Below are positions 13,971 through 45,284 of a stretch of 64,000 nucleotides of DNA, piece after piece. Made by a program: the position numbers and the translations under genes. The stretch comes from Narcine bancroftii (Eukaryota): NCBI RefSeq assembly GCF_036971445.1, contig NC_091480.1, forward strand, positions 84,320,001-84,384,000, read 5' to 3'. Under the pieces are notes generated by a model, which did not search any database, was not told the origin of the DNA, and worked only from the letters and a program-made list of their open reading frames with translations. Numbering within the stretch: position 1 is the first letter of the stretch; every line of letters starts with the position of its first letter.

Positions 13971-13982
13971 GTTGTGAATCAC

Positions 13983-14350: not shown

Positions 14351-14423
14351 TTTAGTTTGAAGTAAAACACGAAAGTCTGCAGACCCAGTTTGATTTGATT
14401 CGGTGTTTGTGAAAAGTAAAAGT

Positions 14424-17398: not shown

Positions 17399-17885
17399 TG
17401 TATTTGGGTGTCCAATAGGTCAATTTTCCACCACCCCCCCCCCCCCCACAACCTTTTTAGCCTCATTTTAATGGTTTTATGTTCTATCTGGCATATAAGT
17501 CGACCCCAATTTTTTCAGGCTGTCCAGTCCTCCCAGGAACTATTTTTAAAAACATCCCAATCACAAGTAACAAGTAAATTAAGTAAAAAAAAAGAGAACC
17601 CCCCCCCCACCAGGCAGTAGTGACGACGGTCCACGGAGCTGGAGCGGTGACATCGTGCTCCTGGCGGGAGCACTCCAGGCAAGGACGCGCAACTTCAGGT
17701 TCCCAGGTAGGAGCGGTTATGGTGGTGCCCAGCGGTGGGGAAGTGCTTCCAGCATCGACTTGTACGCCAAATCGACGTCAATCTGGTGAATTTAAGGTTT
17801 CAAAAGTGTATTCAGTGTTTAAGTTGACCACATCCTTGAGAATTTTCTTTAGGGTTTCACGACTTTTATACTGAAATATACGGTA
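17399..17885. mobile_element. Tc1/mariner (pogo-like) non-autonomous DNA element, degenerate
   Basis: Right end gacttttatactgaaatatacggta and internal tataagtcgaccc repeats typical of this class; left end poorly defined. Confidence 0.4.
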
Positions 17886-19742: not shown

Positions 19743-19755
19743 AGTTTCACTTTCT
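19743..19755 (+). promoter_or_regulatory. IFI35: ISRE (AGTTTCACTTTCT), candidate IFI35 promoter element
   Basis: Matches the AGTTTCNNTTTC consensus; followed by a short candidate non-coding exon ending cagc|gtaagt at 19808, CCAAT (19848) and GC box (19936-19945). Confidence 0.7.
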
Positions 19756-20070
19756 GGAGCGCTTGTGAAGTTCAGGTCGATGCGACTGAACCAGAGGTGG
19801 GTTTCAGCGTAAGTCTCCGAGTTTTCGATCTGTGTTTCTCAAAACGTCCAATCATTTGGGACCAAATCCCGATTTACAAGGTCTTTTATTTGTTAGGGAT
19901 GCCTGATCTACATGGGTACGTCGTGCCTGTAAACTGGGGCGGGACGGGACGGGGGGGCTTTAATGTCACAGTCTGGGATCTTGTGCCCTGCACCGACTTG
20001 GCAAATTTTCTCTTGCGGGGACCCAATAATCCCCAGAGCCAATAATTCCGTTCGTGTCCCAAATAAAATA

Positions 20071-20135
20071 AAATCGAAAGTGAAAGTGTTGAGATCCCAT
20101 AAGAAATCGAAGTTTGTAATTTGGTTTTCAGAGAA
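20071..20135 (+). promoter_or_regulatory. IFI35: IRF-E/ISRE (AAATCGAAAGTGAAAGTG) and GAS (TTCAGAGAA) cluster
   Basis: GAAAGTGAAAGT at 20076-20087; TTCN3GAA at 20127-20135; locally CpG-rich region upstream of the first coding exon. Confidence 0.6.
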
Positions 20136-20754
20136 AGTTTTGCTTTGTTCTGTCATTGTTTAAAATCTCCTTAAAACAGAAAAAAGATCCGAGCCACAAC
20201 TTCAGAGAGAGCCGTACCAAGCAGGCAATTCGGCCCGATTCCTCCATGCCGACCTTTGGGTTGATCCTGAGCCATTCAGTTTGGAGACTTCCCAGCGATC
20301 CGGCTACAACCAGCTGGTGCATTCCAAATGCAGGGGGCTCCTGATCCGGGATCAAGCCCTAAACGTTGGCTATGTTTCTTTATCTTTGCTACCGTACATA
20401 AGAACACTTTTTGACCTGCTGAGTTTCTCCAGCATTGTGTTATTTCAACCGTGGTGTCTGCAGACTTTTGTGTTGTACTTCACCACTTTACCTGGGCATT
20501 CCACTGCACACTTTCATATCCATCGCCAGCCATCCCCGGGGATAGGACTGTTCTACCTTCTACCAGTGACGTCATGAGGCATTGAGCGATGGTTCACCTG
20601 CCCTAAATCCTGATCAATGTATTATCATCTTGTATTTAAACGAAATTAATTATAACATAATTAAGCTTTAAGCACAGTGCGAGCCCTTCGCCTGTTTTTG
20701 CTGTGCTGACCTATATAAACCTTTATAACCACGGGAACATGCGCGCAATAAAGA

Positions 20755-21040
20755 GCAATGGCGGACAATTTATAGACAGCGTGGGAAAGTTGGTAGCGCT
20801 ATCGTGTACAATTTATAAAGACCATGGGGAAAATCTGATGGCGGACGTGCCCGTGCAGCAGAGAAATCCCTCTGTGCACGCGGCTGTGCTGACAGCCTTT
20901 TCTACGCCTCCTGAATTCAGGGAGGGCAGGTCCGCCATTGCTTTCTCCCCATGGTCTTTATAAATTCCCATGGTCTTTATAAATTGTGTGCAATAGTGCT
21001 ACAACCTTTCCCTTGCTGCTTATAAATTGTCCATTATTGC
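20755..21040. mobile_element. Fold-back (palindromic) MITE-like element
   Basis: Arms ~20755-20852 and ~20924-21040 are imperfect reverse complements (acaatttataaagaccatggg / cccatggtctttataaattgt; atggcggacgtgccc / gggcaggtccgccat). Confidence 0.6.
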
Positions 21041-21607: not shown

Positions 21608-21637
21608 ATGGAGTTCTCAATTACTAAAAATGACTGG
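21608..21637 (+). CDS. IFI35: Interferon-induced 35 kDa protein (IFI35/NMI family), coding exon 1 of 9
   Basis: Acceptor ataacag| before 21588, Kozak-like atcATGg, MEFSITKNDW|gtgagt, phase 0 compatible with the next exon. Confidence 0.7.
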
Positions 21638-22819
21638 GTGAGTTTTTGAAACTATAGAACATGGACCAGGCGAAGGCTATGGAGCATGTCAAACTTGCTT
21701 GATTTAATAATCTCTTATTCTGTGCTTCTAATCTGCTTTCCAACCTGATTTCTATAGATCTTGATTGCATTAAAAAATCTATCGATCTCAGCCTTGGATT
21801 TACTCAACCGCTGAGAAAGAATGGTGGGGAATTCCAAAGGTATATAATTTGCTGTTTCCACACGGTCTAAAGTGTCCAGACACTTAACACTTTACCCCTG
21901 AACTACCCCAGCATAAAGGAATGCCATCAACTCTGTCAAAGAGCCTCTACGAAACATCTTGCATTCTTCTAAACTACAGGAGTTTATAACATTATTACTC
22001 AATCTCCCTTCTTCCCGGAATCAGTCTATTGCATTCACACAATAGGATCGCCATTGCTTAAATGGACTTTATACTGTAATGAAGGAGAGATTGTTTACAG
22101 GAACAAACTGGTAGAGAGTGTAAAAATGCAAAAACTTCACAGGCCATGTTAGCTGCCCACCATTGTAGTCAGGAATGCCTCAGAGCAGGAGCAGACAATT
22201 AATTCACCCTCTTAAGTTTGTCCCATCATTTAATCGGATCATGGCCAATCAATGCCTCAACCTAATGTAACTTCCTTTGCTCCATATTCTTGTAATCCTG
22301 ACATGATCCAAATCTGTCATCGGTCTCGAAAATTTCACTTGATCCAGAATCCACTCATTTTCAAGAGATAAAATTTCCAATAAACTGCATGCAAAACTGT
22401 TCCCTGATTTCACTTTTATTTGAAATTTCTGCCTTTTGCTCAGGAATTTTTTTCACTTTTCTCTCCCCAATCAATTGATAGGTGGACTTCAGAAATGAAC
22501 AGCTGCATTCTTCTTGGAAAAGATCACTTATAGTCTTAAAAAGGGATATAGCACCTTCCTAAAAATCTGACAGCCTTATTCAGAACATATAGGCACTTCA
22601 CAGCTTCCATTGGGTAACGATCGCTACTGACTAGCCAGTAGACTTGTGTAAGGATTAACATTGTGGTACTATCATGTCTCTGTGTTTTACTGTATGCACT
22701 GATGGGATTTTTTTTCTCTGTTCAATTGGACTTGCACAGAGGGGAGGGGTGAGTTTTCTTGATGTGTATTTTGTATGGTTGTTGATTGTTAAAATGATAA
22801 ATAAAATATTACAAAACTA

Positions 22820-23050
22820 ATTTAAAATTTAAATTTAGGCATACAGCACAGTAACTGGCCCTTCCGACCCACAAACCCGTGCCACCTAATTAACCTACAA
22901 CCCCTGCACATTTTGAAGGGTGGGAGGAAACAGGAGCACCCAGCGGAAACTCGCACAGACACAGGGAGAAAGTACAAACTCCTTATAGATAGCGCCGGAT
23001 TCACACTTGGGGCTGTAACAGCGTTGAACTAAACCACTATGCTAGCCGAT
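22820..23050 (-). mobile_element. HE1/V-SINE-like SINE
   Basis: gggaggaaacaggagcacccagcggaaactcgcacagacacagggagaaagtacaaactcc is the reverse SINE core. Confidence 0.7.
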
Positions 23051-23199
23051 TTTATAAATAAAAAAACCTATTTTTATAAAATCGCTGGGTCTAGAAAACT
23101 GTATTTAAACCACATAACTTTGTAACTTTATCCTCAGACCATTTCATTGTAATGTGACTGCTGCAGTTCAAGAATTGGGCTCATTGTTTTATACCCAAA

Positions 23200-23460
23200 G
23201 GTATTTAGAAATTCTCCAAAACAAAAGAATAAAAATGTTAAGATATCCAGCTGTGCTTAAAATAGTTATCCGGGGGGAGCAAAACAGGCTGTTCTCAGAT
23301 CCGGAGAAAGCACAAGAATTTGCAGAACACCTGCAGGACAGAAAGATGAAGAGATGTAACAAGAACGAAGAACGACAACAAACTACATATAAAGATGTAA
23401 AGATAATGTATAAGTAAGAACTAAAGAAGGGAAATAAAAGGGAAGTAAGGCAGAGGGGAA
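23200..23460 (+). mobile_element. L1/Tx1-like ORF1 C-terminal fragment
   Basis: MLRYPAVLKIVIRGEQNRLFSDPEKAQEF resembles the L1 ORF1p C-terminal domain. Confidence 0.55.
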
Positions 23461-23966
23461 AAAAACCCAGGAAAATTGTTTGGTTGATGTTCCTTATTAA
23501 TACTTTGTAGCTTGAAATATGTTTTGCCATCTGCAGTGAAACGACTAGTAAACATATTAATTATATGTAAATGACCTGACCTTTCCTGGCTGGCTCGTGA
23601 CTCCTCCCCTTTCTCCCCCATAAAGTTTGTCATGCCCCAAGCCCCAATTCGAGTTCGGGTCAGTGCGAGCGAACAACACAGGGATGCCGTCCATCTCTTG
23701 CAAATAAAAGCCTTCAGTTTCGATTAATTCAGGCTTTGTGAAATTGATCGTGTGTCACCATCTTATAAATGTTTTTTTTAATTTAGATGAAAACATTTAT
23801 TTAAATTATATAAAATAATTTTTAAAGAAATTTTTTTCAGATGCAACTTGTCAGTAACCTTGAACTTATAAACGTCTGATGCAGAAATTTGAATGATATT
23901 TATAAATATTTCAAACTGTGTTTTGTAATGCTTGGCCCTTTATAATGTGACTTTCCTTTTCTACAG

Positions 23967-24050
23967 GGCTTTCTCAGGGATTCTCAGGTTCAGTCCACTA
24001 ATAGTGCCTCCCAGCAGCAAGTACTGCAATCAGAAATAGAAAAGTGCAAG
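23967..24050 (+). CDS. IFI35: IFI35 coding exon 2 of 9
   Basis: ttttctacag|GFLRDSQVQSTNSASQQQVLQSEIEKCK|gtcaga, phase 0-0. Confidence 0.75.
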
Positions 24051-24881
24051 GTCAGAGTGAAGTGCTATTTTTATAATTGTCATTTATGGTTTTTAGACTG
24101 CAGGCACATAATGACACAATCCAGGAATTTTGTCGCGACATGGGCAGTCTAAAAAGGAATGTGCAGGAATTTTGAGTCAATTCCTGCCCCGCGATTTATC
24201 CTGCGGGACCCCTACAGCTTTTTGGAGGAAGCCTGCAGTGTAAATTGTACTGGAAAAGTTAGTCGTCGGTCATCTACTCTACTGTACGTCCAACCACCGG
24301 GACTGCTGCACTCAGATACTCGCGGTCTAAAAAGGTGCCCAGTGAAAACGATAACATGGGCAGTAATTATGTTAATTTTTTCAGCGATTTTCCTGAAATT
24401 CCAGTCTAAAAACATTGAGTATGACTACCTTGGGGTTTGAGAAAATCTCTATTTGTTCAGTATTTCCGGCAAAGTTACAAATTGACATTTTTAAATGCAT
24501 ATACAGTGAATGCCCAAAAATCCAGATCCCAGAACTCCGAATCACCTGAAAAACTAGACTTCTTGAAAATTCTCAAACTTTTAAATTTAGCGGGCTTTTG
24601 AGTGCATAAACACATAAGTGCCACAGATGCACAGTAGTCACAGAAATGAATGAATTTGGGATTTTTTCTAAACTTAGTTTATAAACATAACATTTTTTTC
24701 ATATAAAATACAATCAAAATGTACCTTTTCTCTTTATTCTCTTTAAATTTTAATTTTAAAAGTACTGCTCGAGAATCTTGAAAATCTAGACTGACCCAAT
24801 CCCCAAGCAGTCTGAATTTTAGCACTTTTATGTACTGACATGGTTTATGCAGCCATCACAATAATTTGCACTTTTTCAATA

Positions 24882-25552
24882 CCGTAAAACCCCTGGTAAC
24901 TAGAATCCAAGCAACTGGCAAAAAAAAATCAAGGAAAATAAATTTTAAAAAGTAGTTAAGAACAAAATAATAGGTAAAAAAATATGCTGTTTAAAATTGT
25001 CAAGGTAAATGTTCTCTGAAGCAACACACAAGCCTTTGGTGAAGATGGGAGCGAATATTCAGTCAGTGGAATGTCTTGGTTGTGCTTTGCTCATAGCAAC
25101 TCTTTGAATAAAGTTGGGTGACAGCAATGGCATCGCCCAGGATAAAGAGCTGGTAGATGCTGTTAGGCATTCGTAAGGGTGTCTCCTTAACCCTGCTTAG
25201 TAAAAGTCACCCTGGTCAGAAGCTTCATCTTGTTTAGTGGTGGGAGGGCCATTATCTGTTATGTAATTGTTCGTCTTTTGAGCGGGAGGGGGAGGAACCT
25301 GCAGACACAGTGATGGTTAAATGTTTTTGAAGAACATGATTGAAAATAAATTATTGAGGTTAAAATATTTATGCAAATGAAGTTTGTTCAGTGTAGGGAT
25401 AGTATGGTATTTTTGTCATTTGTCTTTTGAACTGATTATTCTTAATGAAGGTGTATTAGTTGTACGAGGCATTGTAAAATTGAGTCTGAAGCAACCGGAA
25501 TATACACTTATCTAGTAATCGCTGTAGATGCTGGATATCAGGGGTTTTACTG
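24882..25552. mobile_element. Tc1/mariner-type non-autonomous DNA transposon
   Basis: TIRs ccgtaaaacccctggta / tatcaggggttttactg flanked by TA on both sides. Confidence 0.7.
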
Positions 25553-25630
25553 TATTTGCACATTTCCAATCTACTTCCAGCTGAAAAAAGAGTTCTGCAA
25601 TAAAGCATTGAATTTTTTAATTCCTTCTAG

Positions 25631-25789
25631 GCAAAATATAATTCTATATTAAAGGACAAGGATGACTTGGTAAAAGCAAAACTTGAAGTTGGAAAGGTGA
25701 CAGCAGAATATAATGCCAAGATTCAAATGTATCAACAAAACCTTTGGAATGACATAATGGAAAGTTCCATGCAGGACATAAAGTATCAG
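25631..25789 (+). CDS. IFI35: IFI35 coding exon 3 of 9 (coiled-coil region)
   Basis: ttccttctag|AKYNSILKDKDDLVKAKLEVGKVTAEYNAKIQMYQQNLWNDIMESSMQDIKYQ|gttggc, phase 0-0. Confidence 0.8.
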
Positions 25790-25949
25790 GTTGGCATTTC
25801 CATAATTTGTATTTATTTTTATATAGAGTGAAAGATGCTGAAATGTTGTGACCTTCATTCTGTGCATGGTGCTTGTCAACCTGGTGATTGGAACAGGTTG
25901 GTTTAATGATTAGGACCAGTGGAAAACGTGGCTGAAACAGTAGGAAGAC

Positions 25950-26170
25950 ATAGCGCAACACTGTTACAGCACCAGTGATTGGGACCGGGGTTTGAATCCT
26001 GCGCTGTCTGTACGGAGTTTGTACGTTCTCCCCGTGTCTGTGTAGGTTTTCCCTGGGGGGAGCTCTCTGGTTTCCTCCCTCCCTCGCGTACAGTGGGTGT
26101 AGGTTAATTGGGTGTAAATTGGGTGGCACGGACTCATCGGCCGAAGTGGCCTGTTGCTGTACTGTGTGAT
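25950..26170 (+). mobile_element. HE1/V-SINE-like SINE
   Basis: ctgttacagcaccagtgattgggaccggggtttgaatcctgcgctgtctgtacggagtttgtacgttctccccgtgtctg. Confidence 0.7.
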
Positions 26171-26629
26171 AATTTTATAATTTTATTTTATAGATTCTAT
26201 TGATGTTCTCCTATTTCCTCTTCCCAGATGTATCTTGCGTTATGATCTGCACCACCGCCACTTGTCCCTTTCAATCTCTTCATCTCTTCTGGAATCCATC
26301 CTATTAGAGATGTTTAACACTCTCCGTCCTTCCATACTTACTCTGTAATTTAAAACTGTTGACCTTTCATTTCTCTAACCTGCTAAGTATTTTCAGTAGT
26401 CTTGATTTGAATAGAACAGAATGTATTTTCTTCTTCCTTACAAAACTAGGCTTTTTTGTCTTCATATGTATGAAATAAGATAACAATAATATGTTAATTC
26501 TTCTGCTACCTCTCAGATGAATATGTAGAGCAAAGGTTAATATGGGGGAAAATGGTTTATGATGAAGGATAGATTTAATTTGAGTGTTCCAAACTGTGCA
26601 ACCTGAGGAATGAATGAGTGCTGAGTGAA

Positions 26630-29270
26630 ACAGGGAAGTCTGGAAATGCTGTGATTTTAGTGAACACACACTGAAATACTGGAGGAACTCATCCGGTCTT
26701 TACCACTTTGATAGGAGACAAAAAAAAGTTACAGGCCAGAGCCCTTCTTTAAGAAATAAGCCACTGTAGGAAATCTCAGAATTCAAACAATGGGAGAGGA
26801 ATCTAGACCAACAAAAGTTGTTAATTGGATGTGATAAGGAACAAAGTATGAATTTATTATGTTTGTGCAAAAGGAGATGGAGAGAGAGAAAGGGAAAGGC
26901 TATGGTGGGGAGGGGGGTGGTTAATGAAAGCCAGAGAAGTCGATGTTAACGCCATCTGGTTGGAGGGTGCCCAGTCGGAAGATGAGGTGTTGTTCCTCCA
27001 AGTTACGGGTGTTCTCAGTCTGGCAGGGCTTGAGAGCATGGACAAGACATGTCAGCAAGGGAAAGGGATGGAGAATTGTAATGAGTTGCCACTGGGAGAT
27101 CCAAGCCATTGGGTCCAAATGGTGGCGAGGGAGGAGGTGTGGCGCAAGTGGGGCATCTCCTGTGGTCACAGGGGTAGGTCCCAAGGGGACGATTGGTGGG
27201 GAGGGAGGAGTGGACAAGAGGGAGCAGTCCCTGCGGCAGGGAGTCATGGAGGGAGCAGTCCCTGCGGAAGGTGCAGAAGTGAGGAGAGGGGAATATGTGT
27301 CTCGTGGTGGGTTCATGTAGTAGACGGCAGAAGAGGATGTGGGGGATGTGGAGGCTGGTGGGGTGGTAGGTGAGGACGAATCCAGTCCTTGTTGCACGTG
27401 GGAGTGGAGGGGTCCAGGACAGATGTGTGTGTAATTGAGGATATGTAGGTGAGGGCCGAGTTGATGGTGATAGAGGAAAAGTTGTGCTGTTTGAAGAAGG
27501 AGGACATCTCTGATGATCTGGCATGGAAGTTCTCATTCTGGGTGCAGATGCGATGGAGACAGAAGAATTGAGAGAAGGGAATGGAATCCTTACAGGGGAC
27601 AGGGTGGGAAGAGGTGTTGTTGAGGTCGCTGTAGGACTTGGTGGGTTTGTAGAAGATGTCTGTCAAGAGTTTGTCTCCTGAGAAGGGGACAGAGAGAGAG
27701 ATCGAGGAAAGGGAGAGTGTTGCTCGAGATGGACCAAGTGAATTTGAGGTCAGGGTAGAAGTTGGCAGTTTAGTGGATGAAGTGAACGAGCTCATCATGG
27801 GTACATGAGGCAGCACCAAAATAGTCAAGAGTTGAGGGGCCTTGTCTGTTTAGGCTCGTAGCATGGATTGCTCCATGTAGCCAATAAAAATGCAGGCATA
27901 GCTGGTGCCCATGTGGGTACACATGGCCACCCCTTTAACCCGGAGAAAGTGGGATGAGTCAAAGGAAAAATTATTGTGAGTGAAGACGTTCTGCCAGGTG
28001 GAGGAAGGTGGTGGTAGAGGGGGACTGTTTGGTTCTATTGTTCAGAAAGAAATGAAGGGCTTTGAGGTCTTCATTATTGGAAGTGCATAGTCTTGGATGT
28101 CCATGGTAAACATGAGGCGATCGAGTTCAGGGATCTAGAAATTGTTGATGGAGGGCATGTGGAGTGTCCCGGATGTAGGTGAGGAGGGACTGGATCGGGG
28201 AGACAAAACAGAGTCAGGTTGAGCAGAGACCAATTCGGTGGGACAGGAGCACATAGACGCGATGGGTCTGCTGGAACAATTGGGTTTGTGGATCTCGGGT
28301 AGGTGGTGGTGCGGGGTTAGGAAACAAAGTGGTTGGAGGTTGTGCCAGGGAGGTGACCAGAAATGATGAGTTCAGAGTTGGTGCGTGATAGAGTGGTTTG
28401 ATGAGTTTTGGTGGGGCCCTGTTGGAGGGGTAAGTAAGAGGAGATGTTTGAGAGTTGTCACCTAGCTTCGGCCATATGGCGGTCAGTGCTCCAGTCCACA
28501 GCAGTGCCACCCTTGTCTGAGGATTTGATAGGGAGGTTGGGATTAATGCGGAGAGAGAGGAGGGCCAGGCATTCCAAGAGGGTGAGATTGGAACAAGTGA
28601 GGGGAGTAGTGAAGTCAATATGGTTGATGTCATGGTGGCAGTTGAAAATGCAAAAGTACAGAGCAGGCAGAAGGCGGGTCAAGGAGGAAGGAAGGTTGAA
28701 AGTAGGAGAAGGAATCTGTAGTGGGGGTGGAGAATTGTGGAGCTTGGAGACTGAGCCAACGAAAGAAGAGTTCATCATCATGGTGTGGGTGGAACTTGTT
28801 AAGGAGTGGGCAAAGGGGGAAGAAGTTAAGGCCTCTACTGAGGATTGTGCATTAGGTCTCCAAGAGTGGAAGGTCAGAGGGGATGATGAGGACCAGCCAG
28901 GGGTTAGGGGTGGTTCAATGGAGTGGGAGGGGAGGAAGATGGGGTTGATCAGGAGGTGGAGCGCAGGAAGGGTCCAAGGGAGGGTTGGGACGGATGGGGT
29001 GGAGAGAGGCCCATGCGGCCCGCAGAGCCAGGAGCTTGGTCCTGTAGGTCACAGAGGCCAAGGTAGAAACCGGCGTCTGAAGCTCAGTTCTGTAGATCGC
29101 TGAGTTCAGGGAAAAAGTTCACGTTGGCCAAGACTGAGACCCGCATGTGAAGCCTGGTCCTGTGGCCCAGCGGGTTTGGGGTTAAAATTCATGTCAGATA
29201 TTGATCCTGTAGGTCAACGAAGCCGAGGTGGAGACCCGCATCAGGAGCTCAGTCCTGCACAAAGCTCAGA
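26630..29270 (-). mobile_element. Penelope-like retroelement (RT + GIY-YIG), frameshifted, within an IFI35 intron
   Basis: Minus-strand peptides IKSSDKGGTAVDW, TDIFYKPTKSYSDLNNTSSHPVPCKDSIPFSQF, GTYPCDHRRCPTC, NLEEQHLIFRLGTLQPDGVNIDF, followed by the terminal repeat family dispersed in this window. Confidence 0.85.
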
Positions 29271-30285
29271 CCTCTGATTTTTAAGGCAGACTTGATAGAA
29301 GAAAGTTTCTGTGCTCTAGCTCCCCATCTCCTTCCCTTTTAGTCATTGATCTACTGTCTTACCACCAGGGTACATTTTCCTTTGCCCTCTGCCTCTTCCC
29401 CCGTCACCTCCCAGCTTTTTACAGTTCGAAATGAGAAAAAAAATACTGGGATTATAGGTCATTTAGGTGTAATTGGACAGCACGGACTCGTGGTCTGAAA
29501 GGGCCTGTTACCGTGCTGTATGTCAAAATTAAAAGTTAAATAAATTTAAAAGTCCAAAAATCCGGATGCCAGAAATGTGGATCACCCGAGAATCAGACTT
29601 CTCGAAACTCTCACCTGAAATCCAGATTACCTGAAAATCCAGATTTCGTGGAAACTCTCAGCTTTGGCGTGCATGCATTGTGTGTGTTCGCGCCCGCACT
29701 GTATAAGGGCCACAGAGGCACTGCCCGAGAATTCGGAAAATCCGAAAACCAGACCAACCCATTCCCCATGCGGTCCAGATTTTAGGTCTTTTACTGCCCT
29801 TCTTTCCTCATTTCTTTCCTCTCCCACCTATCTTCACCATTCATGTGCCAGCTCATTCTCCTCACCCTTGCCCTCTGTGGTGGTATGAGGTATACCTCTG
29901 TAATAACTGTATGTACTGGCCTGGACCACCTTTCCCTCTGACTCCTCCCAGGAGATTCCCTAATAAAGATCCCAACCCAAGGCCTTGACCCCAGATCACT
30001 TCCTGCTTGGATCCAGGCCAGATGCTCTCAGAGCCCCAGCTAATGTCTAAGCTAACAAAAGCCTTTTGACTCCAATCTACTGCCTCATGGTGTCACTTGA
30101 TTGCCCATCACCCCCCTCCCCCACTTTTTATTTGGCCATCTGCCCTCTTTCTAGCCAGTCCTGATAAAGTGTTTCAGATTTCATATTCATTGTCAGCGTA
30201 CACACATGACATCACATACAACCCTGAGATTCTTTTCCTGAGGGTCAGGCAGAATTACCACTTTTTGGTAGTTCAAAAAAAGTGT

Positions 30286-31305
30286 TGTGGCAGATTATGT
30301 TGTGTTTGTATCGTGTATATAGATATGTTTTTGGGAGATAAATTGGGGAAGGTTTTTTAGTGTAGGTCACATACAAACACTTCAAAACAGATCTCATTTA
30401 AAATACTGGAGCTCTGCTCAAGCCAGATGGGGCGGCTCCTGGGGGCCTTTGCAAAAGCTTTGGGGAGTGCCCAAGAGACTTCACTAATGGATTGTTGTTT
30501 TTTAGAAAGCAACAGATGAAAGAGATCGGAGGAATAGTTCGGAGCTGCAGGTTGTCTGGGAGTGCAGCTTGCTGTTCTATGAGGGTCATGTGGTTTTTGC
30601 AAGCAGANNNNNNNNNNNNNNNNNNNNNNNNNNNNNNNNNNNNNNNNNNNNNNNNNNNNNNNNNNNNNNNNNNNNNNNNNNNNNNNNNNNNNNNNNNNNN
30701 NNNNNNNNNNNNNNNNNNNNNNNNNNNNNNNNNNNNGTCAGCAGCTGGGACTGGAACAGGACAAGCTGGAAAGCTTGTGGAAAACCCCATTTGGAAGATG
30801 GGTTGTGAGTGCTTAGTTCAGCCTGGTCAAAGCCCTTGTGGTTCATGCAAGAGGAGAGGACTGGCTGCCTAATATTTCACTTGAAATAAGAGAAACAAAA
30901 AGGAACTCTGTGGTGACCTGAAAGATAGAGGTTATCGTCTGGAGAACCCTGATGGGGCAAGTTTTTTCGCCAAGATACTGACATGGCTGATTAAAAAGGA
31001 TCAGTTTTTGTCCAGGAACAACAAATCTCTCTCTGAAAACCGACAAGTACCTTCCTGAGCGGTTAAGAATAACCAGTGAACTTGGAGGAATAAGAAATGA
31101 GATTGGTCTGTGAATCAAAGAACTTTTCTGAACTTACATACACGTGCGCTTAGAATTAGAAGGGGGCTAAGTTTGGTTAGTTAAGTTAAAGTTTGATCCT
31201 GTTTTCATGTTTAAAGATAATTAAAAGCAACTTTTGTTTAAGTAACTATTTGTCTTGGTGAATATCTGTTGCGGCTGGGTTTTGGGGTCCTCTGGGCTTT
31301 TAACA
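30286..31305 (+). mobile_element. Solo LTR (~1 kb, Gypsy-like), contains an assembly gap
   Basis: tgtggcaga...ctgggcttttaaca TG/CA ends; homologous in reverse orientation to 55489-56420 and 37696-37990. Confidence 0.7.
30608..30736. other. Assembly gap (129 N)
   Basis: Run of n characters. Confidence 1.
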
Positions 31306-32714
31306 ATGTAAACAAATAAACAGATAGTGAATGTAAAAAAAAACTGCAACACAGAGAATAAAAAAAATCAATACCGTGCAAAAATAAGAGTCCCTAAATG
31401 AGACCCTGATTGAGTTTGTGGTCGAGGGGTAAGATGGAGGAGGGGGAGCAGCTATTTCTGAACCTGGTGGTGCAAGTCTTGTGGCACCTAGACCTCTTTT
31501 CTGATGGGAGCAGCGAGGACAGAGCCTGTGATGTGCATTGTGTGGTGTGGATCCTTGATGATTGCTGTTGCTCTCCCATAGCAGTGTTCCCCGTAGATGT
31601 TCTCGAAGGTGGGAAGGGTTTTGCCTGCGATGTGGTGGGCTGTGTCCATTACCTTTTGCAGAGCTTTCCACTCAAGGGTGTTGTGGACTTCATTTCAGAT
31701 TGTGATGCAGCGGGTCAGCACAATTTCCACCACACCCCTGTAGAAATTTACCAGAGTTTCTGATGTCATACCAAATCTCCGCAAACTCCTGAGGAAATAG
31801 AGTCAGCCTGAAACATTTTGTGAATGTTAAGTTCCTCCTCTAGATTTGATGTGGCATACTCCCATGGCATGTAACCTTCGTGTACAGTATTTGAATGAAT
31901 GCATGCTAAATATATCTCTGCTAAGAAGCCAATATCCACTTTAACTCCACCCTCTTCAGCATCCTGACCCGAAATATTGCCTGACCATTTCTCCCCGAGA
32001 ATGCTGCCTGACCCGCTGGGTGCATTCAACTTTTGCTTTTATGCCTTTCATTTGCTGTTATGTCAGAAGGGAATAGTTCGGCGTGTTCAAAGAATAACTG
32101 GTCTGGACACGGGCTGAATGTAGAAGTAATCTTTATTGAAACACGTCGCAACAGGGATAACAGGCAAACATTTTCAATCACACAACACCGTGCAGCCAGT
32201 CACATTGGACTGATACCATTAACTGTTTACACTCTTACAAGCAACCCTGTCACATCGGACGTAACACTACTGATACTAGCCACTGTTTATACAGACTTAT
32301 CACAACCAAAGACTACATTACCTGTCATTCCTTGTTTAACATGGGCACAGCACAGGTGCTAGCTACAACAGTATACAATAGCCCTGATCCCTATTTAGTG
32401 CAGAACTTACAACTCCTCCAGCATTGCCTTAGCAAGGTTTATCTCTGGGCTGAAGAGCAAAGGAGAAAGTGATACAGCAGCGGTGGATTTTATAATGCAG
32501 TAAAGCTTGCAGGTCCAGCCCAATTAATCATTAAAAGGGGTCAGTGGTCAGGTGGGCATGAATGGATGGGCAGAGTCCAAGCTTGATTGGCAGGCGATGT
32601 GGGTTCCGACTAAGTTCCAGATGGAGAGGTCACGAGATCTTCCACAACCCACATTCCCACCAGGTTCAAGATGGAGAGGCCACATGACTCTCACCATCCA
32701 CAATACAGTTGCTG

Positions 32715-32857
32715 ATCTTATTTAATGGTGAATTAAATTTTTTTACTTTCTTACATTCTCATGTACTTAATAGGAAATCGAAGTATCACTAAAACTGACT
32801 TGGACTCAAAGGCTTGATCAACCCATCACTCCTCATGCTCAATAACATGCTCAACTG
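32715..32857 (+). repeat. Left arm of a 143-bp inverted repeat
   Basis: Reverse complement of 33995-34137 with 1 mismatch. Confidence 0.95.
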
Positions 32858-33029
32858 AGATTTTGGGATTACTTTCTACTTGTTACTTTTGGCAGAATGA
32901 AAATGCTGAGTCGCTGTCAGATACAGCTGTTGCATCATCTAAGGGAGAAGCTTGTATCCTGAGCTCACTACTCTCCCTTCTGCCTCAAGCACCCTCAAAG
33001 GATTTTTTACTTTTATTGCTCTTCTACAG

Positions 33030-33146
33030 GAGAAATTGAAGGACATAGATAAAGAAATTGAGATTGCTATCAAGGACCAGGATACCATAAAGGAGAATTT
33101 AGCAAACATTGATGAGCGGAAAGCAAAGATGGAATGGCAGCTTAAG
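33030..33146 (+). CDS. IFI35: IFI35 coding exon 4 of 9 (coiled-coil / leucine-zipper-like)
   Basis: cttctacag|EKLKDIDKEIEIAIKDQDTIKENLANIDERKAKMEWQLK|gtaaga. Confidence 0.85.
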
Positions 33147-33702
33147 GTAAGACGGACATAGCATTCTGTTAGATGTCCACCAGAGAAAGCGAACAATTGC
33201 ATCAGGTGCTCGCATAAAATTTAAATATAAAATTAGTAATAGAGCCCTGGTCCATGAGCCCGTGCCACTCAAATACCCCAATTAACCGATAAACTGCATA
33301 TGCTTTTGTAGGGAAAGTGGAGCATCCATGCAAGACATGGGGAAAACATACAAGCTCCTCAGAGACAGCATCGGATAAAATACTTACCTCTTAGCAGTGA
33401 CTTGCATTGAGTGAACCCATGAATGACCACTTGAGTTCACTGTGGGTAGCGGCAAGAGGGAACAGTAGAGGCAACAATAGAAAGGGCAGAGCAAAGGGCA
33501 TGTGGAAATTGTTCAGGCAGAAGGCTTCCATCTTGTAGCGAAGGAGTTCTTCAAGAGGAGCAGCTTGGAGAATCCCAGTCATTAATATTGGATTGTATGT
33601 CTTAGTCATCTTCTAATCTTGTTTAATAAGAATATACTTTTACTCCGAGTACCATGCTCTTGTTTTCCATGTCAATGACATTCACATGCCGGCTTTCTAC
33701 AG

Positions 33703-33850
33703 ATTTCATCGTGCATGCCTGAGAAAAGATGGGTTTTCACTGGCCAAGAAATAAAAGACAATGAGCAGGAAGTAAAATTTGACGTCAAGCCAAAAATTCA
33801 GTATCCCATCAAAGGCGGATGCGCATTAATCACGTTTGATGATGTCAAAG
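33703..33850 (+). CDS. IFI35: IFI35 coding exon 5 of 9
   Basis: ttctacag|ISSCMPEKRWVFTG...KPKIQYPIKGGCALITFDDVK(G)|gtaaca; matches the IFI35/NMI 'PLVFRG...SALITFDD' segment. Confidence 0.92.
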
Positions 33851-33994
33851 GTAACACACTTTTTTTCCCTCAGCAGGAAGATTGGGCATAAGGGACCAAT
33901 TATGCATAATTAATGACCAGCAGTGTCATTTTAATTTGGATTCTGGTGAGCAAGATTAAACGGTTATTCACTGGAGTGTTCTCCAAACTGACTC

Positions 33995-34137
33995 CAGTTG
34001 AGCATGTTATTGAGCATGAGGAGTGATGGGTTGATCAAGCCTTTGAGTCCAAGTCAGTTTGAGTGATACTTCGATTTCCTATTAAGTACATGAGAATGTA
34101 AGAAAGTAAAAAAATTTAATTCACCATTAAATAAGAT
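33995..34137 (-). repeat. Right arm of a 143-bp inverted repeat
   Basis: Reverse complement of 32715-32857 with 1 mismatch. Confidence 0.95.
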
Positions 34138-34184
34138 TGGGACTGTTCACGTGCTCCATTTTCCCACTTATCTCTATATCCAAA

Positions 34185-35020
34185 TATCAGATTTATTGTC
34201 AGAATACATCACATACTACCGTGAGATTCCTTTTTCCTGCAGGCGTGGTAAAATTACACTAATTGGTAGTGCAAAAAAAGCTGTACACAGTGTATTCATG
34301 TAAACAAATAAAGAGCTGTAAACAGATAACAAATGTAAACAAACTGACCTGAATTACAGAGACAATAAAAAAGAAAATCAATTAAGTGTCTTTAAATGAG
34401 TCTCTGATTGAGTTTGTCATTGAGGAGTTTGATAGTGGAAGGGTAGCAGCTGTCCCTGAACCTGGTAGCGTGAGTCTTGTGGCACCTCGACCTCTTGTAG
34501 GCAGTAGTGAGAACAGAGCAGGTGCTGGGTCTTTGATGATTATTGCTACGTTCCGACAACAAAGTTCCCTGTAGATGTGATCAGTAGTGGGGAGAGTTTT
34601 GCCTGTGAGGCGCTGGGCTGTGTACACTACATTTTGGAGGCCTTTACACTCAAGGGAGTTTGGTGTCCCTGTACCAGACGGTGAAACAGCTGGTCAGCAC
34701 ACTTTCCACACCTCTGTAAAAATTTGCCAGGCTTTCTGGTGTCATACCAAACCCCCATAAGCTCCTGAGGAAGTAAAGGCGCTGACCTGCTTTCTTCACG
34801 ATGCCATTGGTGTGTTGGGCCCAGGAAAGATCCTCTGAGATAGTGAACTTAAACTTGCTCACCCTCTCCACCAATGATCATTAGATTGTCCACCTCTGGC
34901 TTTCCTTTCCTGAAGACAACAATCAGCTCCTTAGTTTTGGTGGCATTGAGTGCAAGATTGTTGTTGGTGCACCATTCAGCCAAGTCATCAATCTCTAACA
35001 GTATGCTGACTCATTTGTAG
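34185..35020 (-). mobile_element. Rex1/Babar-like LINE 3' fragment
   Basis: KKAGQRLYFLRSLWGFGMTPESLANFYRGVESVLTSCFTVWY; TGKTLPTTDHIYRELCCR. Confidence 0.7.
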
Positions 35021-35399
35021 ATGGTGTTGAAAACTATTATGCGTGCGCAACTAAAATCCAAGCATCCTCAGCCCGAGCTTGTTGAGATTTCCAAAGATTT
35101 GTCATCTTCAGAGTTTAAAAACATCACCTCCTTTCAGTCCTAAATAACCGATTTCTTTACCCTGAGACCATGGTCCCTGGTTCTTGATCTTCCTTCCTGA
35201 GGATACGGATTCTCAGCATCTGTTAAGCCTTGGCAAAACCTTGAATGTACCAATGAAATAACTTCCAATTCTGTCAAATTTCAAAGAGTATAAATGCCCT
35301 GTGTGAACCTTTACCATATCACCAAAGTCCTAACTTCAACTTTGAACTGGTTTCCAAAAAAACGAACTCCTGGCTAACAGAGTTTTACTGCATTCAGGA

Positions 35400-35591
35400 T
35401 GTAGCACGTCAAACCAAGGCTTTTATTAGCAAAAGACTGGAGCGTATTACATCGAGGTCGACCAGTCCAGACTGACCTGGGTCTGGTTAGGACCTGCCAG
35501 TGGGTGTGGCTATGGTTCTCAGCCAATCACTACGACTCTATGTAAATATATACAAATGTATACATTGGTGATAGTATTCTGTATGATCACA
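35400..35591 (-). mobile_element. Solo LTR, same family as 7732-7961
   Basis: TG...CA ends, flanks cagga/gagga, reverse-complement similarity to 7732-7961. Confidence 0.6.
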
Positions 35592-35689
35592 GAGGATTAG
35601 AAATTCATTTGTACTAATCAGGGCCTGCTTATTGAATGCTGCTTCTGAAGTTTGTTTCAATTGAAGTGGAGTTGCTTTCTCAGAGACAT

Positions 35690-36045
35690 TATAGGCCAAG
35701 GAGAGACCCGATAGAAGTTTATAAAATGATGAAAGGCATTCAAAAGAGAGAGAGAATCTTTTTCCCACATACTAGAGGGCATGAATTTGAGGCGAGGGCA
35801 GAGGAGTTTAAAGTGATGTGCTGGGCAAGTTTTTTTTTTACACAGAGAATGGTGGGTGCCTGGAACAGGCTGCCATGGGCAGTGGTGAAAGCAGATGCAA
35901 TAGTAGTTTAAGAATCTTCTATATAAACACAACTATAAAGGGGATGGAAGGATTTATATCAAGTACGAGCAGCAGAGTTTTAGTTGAACCTGGGTAGCAT
36001 GTTCAGCACAGTCAAGTGGGCTGAAGGGCCTGTTCTATGTTCAAT
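35690..36045 (+). mobile_element. CR1-clade LINE 3' end
   Basis: RDPIEVYKMMKGI...TRGHEF...FFTQRMVGAWNRLP; tail gggctgaagggcctgttct. Confidence 0.75.
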
Positions 36046-36471
36046 GTTACTGTAATGTGAAGTTGTCTGTAGTACACAGACATTCACTATATGTTTAGCA
36101 CAAGTGACCTGATGCGTTGTCAATAGCTCAAAAGACTAGAAGTTACCTGATTGGTGTTTATTACCATAAACAGAAAGCACATCTCATATTGTTGACCCGA
36201 GACCAGAGCTTGTTCTGGGTGGGGATGTGGGGGGGGAAGGGAGGGGTTATGGCATTGCTGCCTTTATTAGGGGAATCAAGGGGAAGAGCCACAAGTACAA
36301 TCAGGAAGGGGCAGGCCAGCCAAACACATACAAACATATTAACAGTGGTTCCACCACATGACCGAGAAGAAGTTTCCACCCATTCTGTTTTGTCCGGAAC
36401 TACCTGTAATGACAATGGAACCGTTAAAATGGCTTGCCTTTCCATTTTCTGTTTTTGAATCATTATTACAG

Positions 36472-36578
36472 TTGCTGGGAAGATATTGGAGATGGAGAAT
36501 CACAAGATTGAAATTGGAGAGTGTTCAATAAATATAAAAGCTCGCCCCATGCAGCTGCCAACAGTAGAAGAAATTGAA
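36472..36578 (+). CDS. IFI35: IFI35 coding exon 6 of 9 (NID1)
   Basis: ttacag|(V)AGKILEMENHKIEIGECSINIKARPMQLPTVEEIE|gtaagt, phase 1-0. Confidence 0.93.
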
Positions 36579-37175
36579 GTAAGTGTGGTTGCTGCCGGCT
36601 GATCGTCCACCCAGTGGAGGGACAGCCGATTCCCACCAAAGCATGAGAGAGACTGCAGGGGCTTGCGTTAGAAGGAAAAGCTGGATAGACGGGAACTTTC
36701 TCCCTGGGTCGTAGGAGGCTAAGGGGGACCTTAAAGGGTTCTGTAAAATCATGAAGGGCGCAGATAAGGTCAGAAGTCTTTTTTGCAAAGTAGTTACAGC
36801 AGGGGTGTAACTTTTTCTTGGTTGTGGGCCAAACACAGGAAAAAATGTAAGGAGTCATGGCCCAAACAACATTAAGCCCGGCAGTTTTCAACTGCACAGA
36901 GCCACGGCAGTCAAACTGGGTAGATGGACCCCTTAGAGGGGGCCAAAATGGGCAACAGGCCACAGTTGGCCTGGGGGCCATATTTTGGTCACCCCTGACC
37001 GAGTTGATATCACTCGGCCACAAGCTACACTGTGGTATCTCCAGGGTCCAGCCACTGTGGAATGGACGTTAAATTGAGAGCTCTCCTGAGCTTAGCTTGG
37101 ATGGTTATGATTCAGGTCTGCACGAAACCTACCATCTGTCTCCGTGACACTGAAATGGATGAACTCTTCCTGCAG

Positions 37176-37362
37176 ATTCAAACCCAGGTCTCCAAACATT
37201 GTGTGCTGATTTCAGAAATCCCGAAGTTTCTTCCAACCATGCAGCTTCTGGACAAGTTAGAACTCCACTTCAGCAAACCCAGGAACAACGGAGGGGAAGT
37301 GGACAAAATTGAGATGTTGGAAGATTCTGGAAATGTGGTGATTACCTTTGTTGAGGAAGGAA
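37176..37362 (+). CDS. IFI35: IFI35 coding exon 7 of 9 (NID1/NID2)
   Basis: ctgcag|IQTQVSKHCVLISEIP...LLDKLELHFSKPRNNGGEVD...SGNVVITFVEEG|gtaaga; NID signature LLDKLE.FSK.RN.GGEVD. Confidence 0.95.
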
Positions 37363-37695
37363 GTAAGATATCAAATGTCGTCTGAAAATTAATGCAGATA
37401 TCCCTCCTGTTATTAATCATTTCCTTCTAACTGTCCACAAATTTGGTGCTTGAGCGCTGCTGAATTTCATTAACCTTCAATGTGTGCAGCATTTCACTTA
37501 TTCAAAGTTCCTTCAACTTTGTTTAGATTCACGTTTGCCCACTAGCTCTGTAAGAGACTGTGATTTAATACATTAGTCCAATGAGGATCTGCTAAGAGTT
37601 TATTTAAGTTCAGTTTAGTTTACACAATGTATTCCTCTATACCTCTTTTCTAAACCCATTTGGACGGTCTTACTATGTTAAACCTCTAATACAAA

Positions 37696-37990
37696 TGTTA
37701 CGAGCCCAAAGCACCCCAAAACCCAGCAGCAATAGACATTCACCAAGACAAGTAGTTTTTAAAAACAAAAGTTGTTTTTAATCAACTTTAAACATGAAAA
37801 TAGAATCAAACTTTAACTTATCTCTATACTTAACTAAACCAAATTAACCCCTTTCTAATTCTAAGTGCATGTGAATGATGTGTGTGTAAATTTAAGAAAA
37901 GTTATTTGGTTCACAGATCTGTTTTAAAATGTGTGTATGTATATAACCTACTCTAATTTTACCAAATTCCTCCCAATATTTATCTATTAC
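37696..37990 (-). mobile_element. Internally deleted LTR, family of 55489-56420
   Basis: tgttacgagcccaaagcaccccaaaacccagcagcaatag... matches the start of 55489-56420. Confidence 0.6.
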
Positions 37991-38029
37991 GCAAATGCAA
38001 GTTAATGTCGAGTATTAGAGTTTCATTGA

Positions 38030-38210
38030 TTCGCAACCTTTTTTTTCCTTCTACTCACCTATCATCTTAGGTAATCCCTTCCTAACCACATCACCCATAG
38101 CATAGGATGCCATTAGTGCTGTGTGGTTCGGAAGGGATTACTTAACCATATAACCATTTACGGAGCGGAAAGTGGTATGTGAGTGGAAAGAAAAAGGTTG
38201 CGAACCACTG
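38030..38210. mobile_element. hAT-like palindromic MITE
   Basis: ttcgcaacctttttt...taatccct...agggattacttaa...gaaaaaggttgcgaaccactg; same family at 59666-59791 and 63322-63455. Confidence 0.6.
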
Positions 38211-38971
38211 GTAGCCAGTTAAGACAAAGCACATTTAAATAAACAGGCCACATGTTCTCTGAAGATCAAACAAATGCTGGAAATCTGAGGTACATCAGAA
38301 ATCTTTGTGGCCAGTTCTGATTCTGACCTTCACTGTATCTACTAAAATGAGAAGCTTGTCATTGAAAGAATTAATTCTTCCTGTCGATTCAGAAGAATTA
38401 ATTCTTCCTGTCGACTCAGACTCAAATTTGCACACAAAAGAATGCTGGTCAGACAACGTTCGTTGGCCGCGGGTAACTGAAAACTGCGGAAAGTGAAACC
38501 GCAGATAAGCGGGGACCACTGTACTCACTATGCGAAAAAGGTGCCCTTTTTGTGCCCCTACCCTGGGCAATAGACTATGGCTATTTACTTTATCTGCACC
38601 TGTCATAATTGTATCAATCTCTGTAAGGTCCCTTCTCAGCGTGCATCCTTTTTCATTTATAATTACATCTACCATAGCCGGGTAATCAGAACTGGACACA
38701 ATCTTTCAGACAGCTGGAAACATTGGGTCAAACACTGGGTACCCCAGATGCAGGAAGAGAAAGGTGGGTGGTTATTTCCCTCCGAGCATCCTCTTTCACT
38801 GCCACCTGCAGTTTGACCTCAGGCCACCATCCACTCACTGGTTGTCTGAATGAGGAGCAAAGTGGAAAGGAATACCTGAAGGATTTTGGAGATGTTAAAA
38901 AAGGAATTACTATTACTTGAGGCAATGCATTACCTGGACACTCAACTGTTTAATCATTTCATTCTTTCTAG

Positions 38972-39084
38972 TTTCTGAGAAATTGACAAACAAAGGGTTT
39001 CATCAGGTTTCATTTCGAGGAATTGACAAAACTGCAACTTTGAAAGTATCACCATTTATTAATGGTGAAATTGAGCGCATAAAG
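38972..39084 (+). CDS. IFI35: IFI35 coding exon 8 of 9 (NID2)
   Basis: ttctag|(I)SEKLTNKGFHQVSFRGIDKTATLKVSPFINGEIERIK|gtatgg. Confidence 0.93.
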
Positions 39085-39858
39085 GTATGGAATCTTACTC
39101 TGTCATTTGCCTTTTGCTCATTTTATAAAAAAGTCTTTAAACTTCGAACAGACAGCAATTAGAAATATAATATATTTCTGATAGGTATTTAAAAGTGGAG
39201 TTTTATGGCCGTCTGCAAACAATAGGGGTTTCATGCAACTCCCCAACTCTGCAATTGTTACAGCTGATTAGATTTGATAAAGTTGGATCTCTGCCAAAGG
39301 TTCTAGGTTCAATCCCCATTTCAAGAGGTTGAGTTCAGAAATCTATGCTAATTTGAGGGAGGGGTTGCTTTGTTAGTGATCCTACTTCCTATTGTTCAAT
39401 ATCTTGTCTGCCACTCTCATTTTCCATTTAATGAGCCATCCTGAGTCATGTGTGTGTGTGTGCGTGCATGCATGCATATGGTCACATGCATCCATTTCTA
39501 TGCATGTGTGTATGGGGCACTGAATGTGAACATGCATGTGTGTGTTTGTGCGCTTGGTGGTCTTTTCCTCCTTCCTTTTTTTGACCTGTTCATCAATTGA
39601 GTATTAGCACAGAGCTGTGAAAGGGATCCAGCAAATTAGTTAGAAAGAGACCAACACATTTGGTACAAATAGGTTATTTGGATGTGGACCCAAATTAGCA
39701 ACATGGCAGTAAAGACATGCAATTCGAGTTACTTTCACTCCTGCGGATACATTCCGCAACAAATGCTTCCTGTCTTACTGAATACTTCTGCCTTGTCTTC
39801 AATTCCTGTTGTACTTTGGATTATTTTCACATTGCTTTGTTTTATGTTTTACTTTCAG

Positions 39859-40068
39859 GTAGGCGAGATTATTTCTAAAAAAAGTGTGCTGCTTACTGGA
39901 ATCCCAGACATACTGGATGAAGAGAACTTTAAAGACTATTTGCAGATTCATTTCCAGAAAGCCAGCAATGGAGGTGGGGAGGTGGATGCGATTATCTACA
40001 TCCCTGAGGGGAAAAGTGCAATAACTTGCTTTGAGGAAGACAATGAGGAGATATCTGAAGATCCATGA
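39859..40068 (+). CDS. IFI35: IFI35 coding exon 9 of 9 (stop)
   Basis: ttcag|VGEIISKKSVLLTGIPDILDEENFKDYLQIHFQKASNGGGEVDAIIYIPEGKSAITCFEED...*; total CDS 1155 nt = 384 aa; IFI35 rather than NMI is favoured by adjacency to RPL27, as in human. Confidence 0.95.
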   Translation, partial: VGEIISKKSVLLTGIPDILDEENFKDYLQIHFQKASNGGGEVDAIIYIPEGKSAITCFEEDNEEISEDP

Positions 40069-44915: not shown

Positions 44916-45284
44916 TAGATACTACACACATACATAGATTATTACAAGATCATGGACTGAAGGACTTGTGCTGTAACGTTCTGTAATGTTTAGATACTAC
45001 ACACATACATAGATTTTCACAAGATCATGGACTGAAGGACTTGTGCTGTAACGTTCTGTAATGTTTAGATACTACGCACATACATAGATTTTCACAAGAT
45101 CATGGACTGAAGGACTTGTGCTGTAACGTTCTGTAATGTTTAGATACTACACACATACATAGATTTTCACAAGATCATGGACTGAAGGACTTGTGCTGTA
45201 ACGTTCTGTAATGTTTAGATACTACACACATACATAGATTTTCACAAGATCATGGACTGAAGGACTTGTGCTGTAACGTTCTGT
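44916..45284 (+). repeat. 75-bp minisatellite, ~4.9 copies
   Basis: tagatactac starts at 44916, 44991, 45066, 45141 and 45216. Confidence 0.95.

What the first reader, a model, noticed from the sequence alone, without database searches (positions are those of the whole stretch)
32715..34137. Near-perfect 143-bp inverted repeat brackets IFI35 coding exons 4 and 5
Seen: 32715-32857 and 33995-34137 are reverse complements at 142/143 positions and are 1137 bp apart. They enclose exactly two coding exons (117+148 = 265 nt), and the arms resemble no repeat family I recognise in this window. Knowledge: intronic reverse-complementary arms promote back-splicing or exon loop-out and form ADAR substrates. 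Inference: the pre-mRNA can form a long perfect duplex. Skipping both exons joins a phase-0 donor to a phase-1 acceptor and reaches TAA at 36529-36531 after 19 codons, an NMD target; back-splicing would give a 265-nt circRNA. In an interferon-induced gene this could be an editing-sensitive splicing switch. The arms could also mediate inversion of the two exons. High identity implies a recent origin or ongoing gene conversion.
Basis: partly seen in the sequence, partly recalled or inferred. Interest (0 to 1): 0.7.

Follow-up and report, generated by a model that had tools for sequence, protein, structure and literature searches.

The report
Inverted repair copy around IFI35 exons
In an electric ray, two almost identical 143-base stretches face each other across two exons of an interferon-induced gene; this is likely one of the local copy-and-paste repair scars that recur across this genome, and although the unspliced RNA is predicted to fold back on itself, the main assembled transcript keeps both exons, so it is probably ordinary.

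Summary
Observation confirmed. The arms 32715-32857 and 33995-34137 match at 142/143 and bracket IFI35 coding exons 4-5. The arm has two matches in the 3.33-Gb genome. Contigs of a DNA run carry all four junctions, which argues against a transposon or an assembler error.

The layout recurs. In 1.6 Mb sampled elsewhere, 4 other sharp-ended inverted pairs (67-104 bp, at least 95% alike, 0.7-4.2 kb apart) are also two-copy genome-wide. Best reading: a locally templated inverted insertion, the class called 'Inverted Dup' in humans (PMC4617611).

The arms are predicted to pair (-245 kcal/mol), and such pairs can cause skipping (mouse Tbxt-insRCS, PMC10901737). But in 4 of 4 probable RNA runs (one study) one unbroken contig splices exons 3-4-5-6 normally. 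Rare skipping, circles, editing, inversion and conservation could not be tested.

One mismatch does not prove a recent origin: about 5 million generations at a shark mutation rate, with a wide range. The scan found this kind of thing before on other DNA, including DDX5 exon 8 in this genome. Verdict: new member of a known kind, low interest.

The parts
32715..32857 (+). Left arm of the inverted pair, in intron 3, ending 172 nt before the exon 4 acceptor; 33% GC; two-copy in the genome
33995..34137 (-). Right arm, in intron 5, starting 144 nt after the exon 5 donor; tentatively the inserted copy (weak, inferred)
33030..33146 (+). IFI35 coding exon 4 (117 nt, phase 0 to 0), in native orientation inside the loop
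33703..33850 (+). IFI35 coding exon 5 (148 nt, phase 0 to 1), reaching into the start of the first NID domain
33984..33993 (+). 10-nt stretch ending 1 nt before the right arm that matches an internal part of the arm; possible second templated piece at the junction (post hoc, p 0.019 uncorrected)
32060..32707 (+). High-copy interspersed repeat (LINE-like 3' part; label recalled, not from a call) that ends at its usual end 7 nt before the left arm, so the arm does not cut it; the start coordinate is approximate
33214..33376 (.). High-copy short repeat (SINE-like; label recalled) in intron 4, inside the loop; served as positive control for the copy-number search
36529..36531 (+). TAA reached in exon 6 if exons 4-5 were skipped (hypothetical product; not seen in RNA contigs)
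21608..40068 (+). IFI35 gene, nine coding exons, 384 aa

Best explanation
The two arms are a real, two-copy inverted duplication of intron DNA, likely left by one germline template-switch repair event, and likely without a selected role, since the main assembled transcript keeps both exons. Step 1 (inferred): at a break or stalled fork in one intron, the polymerase copied 143 nt of the other intron from the opposite strand 1.1 kb away and returned to its own template. Step 2 (shown): the DNA between the arms is in native orientation, since both exons read in sense and are spliced in. Step 3 (predicted): the pre-mRNA can pair arm to arm and loop out exons 4-5 without covering their splice sites. 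Step 4 (shown for contigs only): normal splicing dominates. Step 5 (inferred, untested): any skipped RNA would be a minor by-product removed by nonsense-mediated decay, and any 265-nt circle would be a minor by-product too.
For: Two-copy arm with sharp ends; both inner flanks single-copy. All four junctions present in DNA contigs. The same layout recurs: among 162 inverted pairs of 50 bp or more in 1.6 Mb, 12 have arms with no other hit in the sample, 4 of the 12 are at least 95% alike, and 4 of 4 checked are two-copy genome-wide. Direct-orientation pairs occur at a like rate (6 of 18 at least 95% alike; one block skipped; not checked genome-wide), which points to a copying process with no preference for hairpins. 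One background case inside an old repeat can be polarised: the left arm is collinear with both flanks, the right arm is extra, and the spacer is not flipped. Human 'Inverted Dup' variants are under 1 kb and inserted within 5 kb of the source (PMC4617611, passages). The mouse Tbxt-insRCS2 allele arose as a 220-bp inverted copy from the next intron at a CRISPR target site (PMC10901737, passages). 4 of 4 probable RNA runs splice exons 3-4-5-6 in one contig.
Against: No orthologous intron was available, so the ancestral state, the source arm and junction microhomology are not shown. At 143 bp and 99.3% the pair is longer than all 4 two-copy background pairs (67-104 bp). The junction-scar test was post hoc; only 1 of 15 pairs reached p under 0.05, so it shows no class-wide scar. 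The RNA evidence comes from contigs of one study with library type not on record, and they drop rare variants. Engineered perfect pairs of 220-297 bp do cause skipping in mouse (PMC10901737), so a real effect here is not excluded.
Confidence: 0.74

Rival explanations
1. Selected splicing switch: the duplex drives skipping (to decay) or back-splicing of exons 4-5, and ADAR editing during the interferon response melts it and so tunes IFI35 output.
For: The geometry is suitable: arms 172 and 144 nt from the splice sites, duplex -244.6 kcal/mol, paired in both the minimum-energy and centroid folds. Skipping shifts the frame. Precedents exist for skipping (PMC10901737, passages) and for ADAR suppressing circles (PMC5168830, review passages).
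Against: 4 of 4 runs give an unbroken contig with both exons. The layout is common background. An older 77%-alike inverted repeat pair around exons 4-7 has a similar computed energy (-240.8, over a longer 222-nt alignment). No evidence of conservation was obtainable.
Confidence: 0.07
2. Inversion scar or flip-flop cassette: the arms arose as breakpoint duplications of an inversion that later reverted, or now let exons 4-5 flip by recombination, giving a null allele.
For: A single template switch can create an inverted repeat with an inverted spacer (PMC5453318, passages). The arms are 99.3% alike.
Against: The spacer is in native orientation, so this origin needs two events with a null intermediate. 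The polarised background case shows plain insertion with an unflipped spacer. 143 bp is short for efficient ectopic recombination (general knowledge, recalled).
Confidence: 0.08
3. Old duplication kept alike by repeated gene conversion or template switching between the arms.
For: Template switching can convert near-perfect inverted repeats into perfect ones (PMC5453318, passages). Older 81-91% pairs exist in the background.
Against: Identity stops sharply at both ends with no decayed extension. A slow mutation rate explains one mismatch without conversion.
Confidence: 0.05
4. Terminal inverted repeats of a DNA transposon, or two opposite insertions of a rare mobile element.
For: Long near-perfect inverted ends. 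The inner ends begin with CAGT, a motif recalled from Tc1/mariner ends.
Against: Only two matches genome-wide. No TA or longer direct repeat flanks the arms, only a 2-nt TG at the outer ends. The enclosed exons belong to the resident gene, and exon 4-5 sequence did not appear among the 40 scored candidates elsewhere. The search warns that no match does not prove rarity.
Confidence: 0.04
5. Assembly artefact.
For: Near-identical inverted copies can come from library fold-backs or misassembly (general knowledge). The DNA runs X1-X4 share one sample code that may be the assembled sample.
Against: Four junction contigs at even depth 4.1-4.6, with roughly double depth (8.1-10.5) over the collapsed arm; the outer right junction is also in another sample's contig. 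The arms differ at one site.
Confidence: 0.02

Closest known systems
Human germline 'Inverted Dup' structural variants (1000 Genomes SV map, PMC4617611; passages read)
   Same: Duplicated stretch under 1 kb, inverted, inserted within 5 kb of its source, not tied to retrotransposition.
   Different: There the ancestral allele is known; here no empty allele was seen, so insertion is inferred.
MMBIR-type templated insertions (PMC8421209; passages and part 1 of section 10 read) and four-point template switching (PMC5453318; passages)
   Same: Insertion close to and inverted relative to its template; germline; can include several templated pieces.
   Different: Junction microhomology, their hallmark, cannot be scored without the ancestral allele. 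The examples in the four-point passages read are shorter-range than this 143-nt, 1.1-kb case.
Human TBXT AluSx1-AluY pair and mouse Tbxt-insRCS / insRCS2 alleles (PMC10901737; passages)
   Same: Inverted intronic pair flanking coding exon(s). insRCS2 is a 220-bp non-repeat copy from the adjacent intron, the same anatomy.
   Different: There skipping and a phenotype were measured. Here the pair is shorter (143 bp), encloses two exons, skipping would shift the frame, and only the normal transcript was assembled.
Reverse-complementary matches that promote circular RNA and are edited by ADAR (review PMC5168830; passages)
   Same: Pairing arms close to the splice sites of a two-exon block.
   Different: No back-splice junction or editing has been shown here.

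Membership tests
Locally templated inverted duplication | Copy under 1 kb, inverted, within 5 kb of its template | tested here: met
   143 bp, 1137 nt apart
Locally templated inverted duplication | Not a dispersed repeat: only two copies | tested here: met
   2 matches from 2 candidates; controls gave 443 and 1116 candidates
Locally templated inverted duplication | Spacer in native orientation, sharp junctions | tested here: met
   exons in sense and spliced in; sharp ends
Locally templated inverted duplication | Ancestral allele lacks one arm | not testable with these tools
   no related genome is held; the laid run of organism B gave no usable piece over the arms
MMBIR / polymerase-theta templated insertion | Microhomology or extra templated pieces at the junctions | tested here: inconclusive
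   10-nt match at the inner right junction, p 0.019 post hoc; 1 of 15 pairs under 0.05
DNA transposon terminal inverted repeats | Dispersed copies and target-site duplication | tested here: not met
   two-copy; no TA or longer duplication at the ends
Exon-flanking pair that causes skipping (TBXT type) | Arms can pair around the exons | tested here: met
   predicted only:
Exon-flanking pair that causes skipping (TBXT type) | Skipped transcript exists and depends on both arms | tested here: inconclusive
   only the normal form in 4 of 4 contig sets; rare forms are dropped; dependence on the arms untestable
circRNA-promoting reverse-complementary match | Back-splice junction in RNA | tested here: inconclusive
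   none among 15 of 37 joints shown; library type not on record
ADAR-edited intronic duplex | A-to-G clusters in the arms in RNA versus matched DNA | not testable with these tools
   only contigs are held, with almost no RNA-run cover of the arms

The most novel reading that the evidence does not exclude
A natural counterpart of the engineered Tbxt-insRCS allele: one repair accident built a 143-bp intronic duplex that, in interferon-stimulated ray cells, diverts IFI35 pre-mRNA into decay or a 265-nt circle under ADAR control. With thousands of such pairs inferred in this genome, templated repair would be a transposon-independent source of new splicing switches in rays.
Probability: 0.06. Interest if true: 0.6.

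Novelty: new member of a known kind. Interest (0 to 1): 0.16.

Why it matters
As it stands it matters little: it fits a known class of local inverted duplication, and the gene's main transcript appears normal. Two things keep some value. First, the locus is a compact natural test of whether a short, near-perfect, non-repeat pair is enough to cause skipping or circle formation; the TBXT paper calls for a global search for such configurations (PMC10901737, Discussion passage). Second, the background count (4 in 1.6 Mb; 0.7-6.4 per Mb; roughly 2,000-21,000 genome-wide by extrapolation) suggests a frequent mutational process in this ray. A search for 'inverted duplication', 'elasmobranch' and 'templated' showed no paper on this among the 10 of 109 listed; two searches on IFI35 showed no title on a circle or skip of these exons (listings only).

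Tried and rejected
1. Rfam scan of 32000-35000: 0 matches at E up to 1.
2. Run search: no RNA holder listed on record; four runs are guessed to be RNA.
3. Editing test: the arms have almost no cover in X5-X8 and no other letters were listed at 98% likeness, which says nothing about editing.
4. Relative: run X9 (organism B, share 0.09) gave no listed piece over the arms, so no conservation test was possible.
6. Polarising by an interrupted repeat: the upstream repeat ends at its usual end before the left arm (29 copies compared) and both inner flanks are single-copy, so neither arm interrupts a known sequence. A 6-nt match that might be that repeat's target-site duplication is chance-level.
7. 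Junction-scar enrichment across the class: not seen, 1 of 15 pairs.
8. Polarising background cases: of 5 repeat-associated cases only one was clearly informative; one was two copies of a young repeat and the rest were unclear.
9. Coding circle: the 265-nt circle has stops on rolling translation, so no endless frame.
10. Cryptic exon: the left arm holds a pyrimidine tract plus AG near 32773, but no contig shown uses it; absence of cover is no evidence.
12. A paper search on the genus name (5 of 7 listed) showed nothing on this locus. Supplements were not read for any paper.

Full report
Observation. The two arms lie at 32715-32857 and 33995-34137, match at 142 of 143 positions as reverse complements, are 1137 nt apart and end sharply. 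The mismatch is 32791 A opposite 34061 G. Exon 5 matches a 384-aa protein at 100% that NCBI names interferon-induced 35 kDa protein of Narcine bancroftii; three ray relatives are 78-86% alike over this exon. The protein has two NID domains and maps to nine coding exons; those inside the arms are the fourth (33030-33146) and fifth (33703-33850). Joining exon 3 to exon 6 gives 19 codons and TAA at 36529-36531. That stop is 47 nt before the next junction but far before two later ones, so decay is expected by the usual rule (established knowledge).

Is it real? In DNA run X1, contigs with no other letters cover 32288-32744, 32828-33281, 33258-34024 and 34108-34252. Each stops 30 letters inside an arm, as a 31-letter-word graph must at a two-copy repeat. 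Their depths are 4.1-4.6, and bins over the collapsed arm read 8.1-10.5. X1 may be the assembled sample, so this argues against an assembler error but is not a second animal. A contig of X6, with other sample and study codes, crosses the right arm's outer junction (34066-34249, depth 3.5).

What is the arm? It has 2 matches from 2 candidates in the 3.33-Gb genome. The same search found 443 candidates with the spacer, whose scored hits elsewhere all fell on a short repeat in intron 4, and 1116 for the repeat upstream, so it does detect repeats here. No Rfam family matches. Both inner flanks are single-copy. The upstream repeat ends where most of the 29 other copies compared also end, 7 nt before the left arm. 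There is no target-site duplication beyond 2 nt. The arm is ordinary AT-rich intron DNA present twice.

How unusual is that here? I took 1.6 Mb in 30 blocks on 14 contigs: two 100-kb blocks beside the window and 28 blocks of 50 kb at round-number positions. Self-comparison found 162 inverted pairs of at least 50 bp with spacers of 0.1-10 kb. Twelve have arms with no other hit in the sample, and 4 of those are at least 95% alike: 67, 71, 89 and 104 bp, with spacers 4217, 672, 902 and 713. All 4 are two-copy genome-wide. That is 2.5 per Mb (95% range 0.7-6.4), or about 2,000-21,000 per genome if the sample is fair. Direct-orientation pairs are about as common: 18 of 438 have no other hit and 6 are at least 95% alike, two of which may be one event; one block was skipped and none was checked genome-wide. 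Longer inverted pairs of 250-459 bp lie within or beside older repeats. Against this reading, the IFI35 pair is longer than all four two-copy background pairs, and I did not test whether any background pair brackets an exon.

Mechanism. In one background case inside an old repeat, other copies of the element run through the left arm and both its flanks, resume after the right arm in the same direction, and lack about 500-600 nt. The right arm is therefore an inserted inverted copy and the spacer is unflipped (1 of 5 cases was informative). IFI35 has the same anatomy, since its spacer exons read in sense. This matches the human 'Inverted Dup' class, stretches under 1 kb inserted within 5 kb of the source (PMC4617611, passages), and germline templated insertions ascribed to microhomology-driven template switching (PMC8421209, passages and part of section 10; PMC5453318, passages). 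The last two leads to PMC4617611 and PMC10901737 came from earlier notes of this scan; I read the passages myself. A 10-nt piece at 33984-33993 repeats an internal part of the arm and hints that the right arm is the copy (p 0.019), but I saw it before designing the test and only 1 of 15 pairs passed 0.05. Which arm is the source, and which enzyme did the copying, are not shown.

Age. One mismatch in 143 gives 0.7% (95% range 0.02-3.9%). At 7e-10 per base per generation, measured in the epaulette shark (PMC10587355, passages), that is about 5 million generations (0.13-28 million). The rate is from another species. The pair is young compared with the 65-90% alike repeats around it, but neither a very recent origin nor gene conversion is required.

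Effect on RNA. The arms pair fully, apart from the mismatch, in both the minimum-energy and centroid folds of 32700-34150; the duplex alone is -244.6 kcal/mol, and it stops 172 and 144 nt from the splice sites. Engineered perfect pairs of 297 and 220 bp cause exon skipping in mouse Tbxt, and the 220-bp allele arose unplanned as an inverted copy from the next intron at a CRISPR target site (PMC10901737, passages). Such matches also promote circles and are edited by ADAR (PMC5168830, review passages). The data do not show it. In each of 4 probable RNA runs, one contig of 1725-1811 letters (depth 75-231) passes through exons 3, 4, 5 and 6 by GT..AG joints. No skip or back-splice joint is among the 15 of 37 joints shown, and a retained branch would be expected to break the contig (the last point is inference). 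The limits are real: one study, RNA status guessed, library and tissue not on record, rare variants dropped, and no stimulated samples known. Editing and inversion could not be examined.

Verdict. The best explanation is a templated-repair scar of a known kind that happens to enclose two exons (0.74). A selected, editing-sensitive switch remains possible but unsupported (0.07). Earlier notes of this scan describe like cases in this genome (DDX5 exon 8, SUGP1/SUGP2) and in other animals; they agree but are unchecked and are not counted as evidence. Interest 0.16.

Noticed in passing
window 54844-63263 (+): A second gene downstream of IFI35 has an exon with an NID-family match (54892-55035, E 2.7e-10) and an open frame of 1074 aa (60042-63263) with a KH_DTX3L match below the curated cut-off; possibly a PARP14/DTX3L- or RBM43-like interferon-related neighbour (names inferred).
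   Followed up: partly
G000 sample: L094:1004-1092 with L094:1995-2083; L121:472-575 with L121:1289-1392; L086:7569-7635; L163:2241-2310: Two-copy local inverted duplications at about 2.5 per Mb, with direct-orientation ones at a like rate; a genome-wide census may show an unusually active templated-insertion process in this ray.
   Followed up: partly
L108-L110 (G000:C11:200000001-200021000): A cluster of nested inverted and direct duplications of 0.1-2 kb at 94-99.6% identity, which looks like a complex local rearrangement.
   Followed up: no
window 50249-51305: Tandem array of 21-bp units, open for 350-380 codons in frames on both strands; probably a minisatellite.
   Followed up: no
window 6075-6279: Three tandem 68-bp copies at 97-100% identity, each ending in a motif that resembles an ETS/CRE promoter element (motif recalled), beside GC-rich sequence.
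   Followed up: no
window 44916-45284: Tandem array of about five 75-bp units at 95-98% identity.
   Followed up: no
window 31107-31305 with 37696-37917; 22823-23006 with 25990-26185: Older inverted repeat pairs (77% and 70% alike) bracket IFI35 exons 4-7 and exons 2-3 and could compete for pairing.
   Followed up: partly
window 32737-32780: The left arm contains a pyrimidine tract followed by AG, resembling a splice acceptor; no RNA contig shown uses it.
   Followed up: partly
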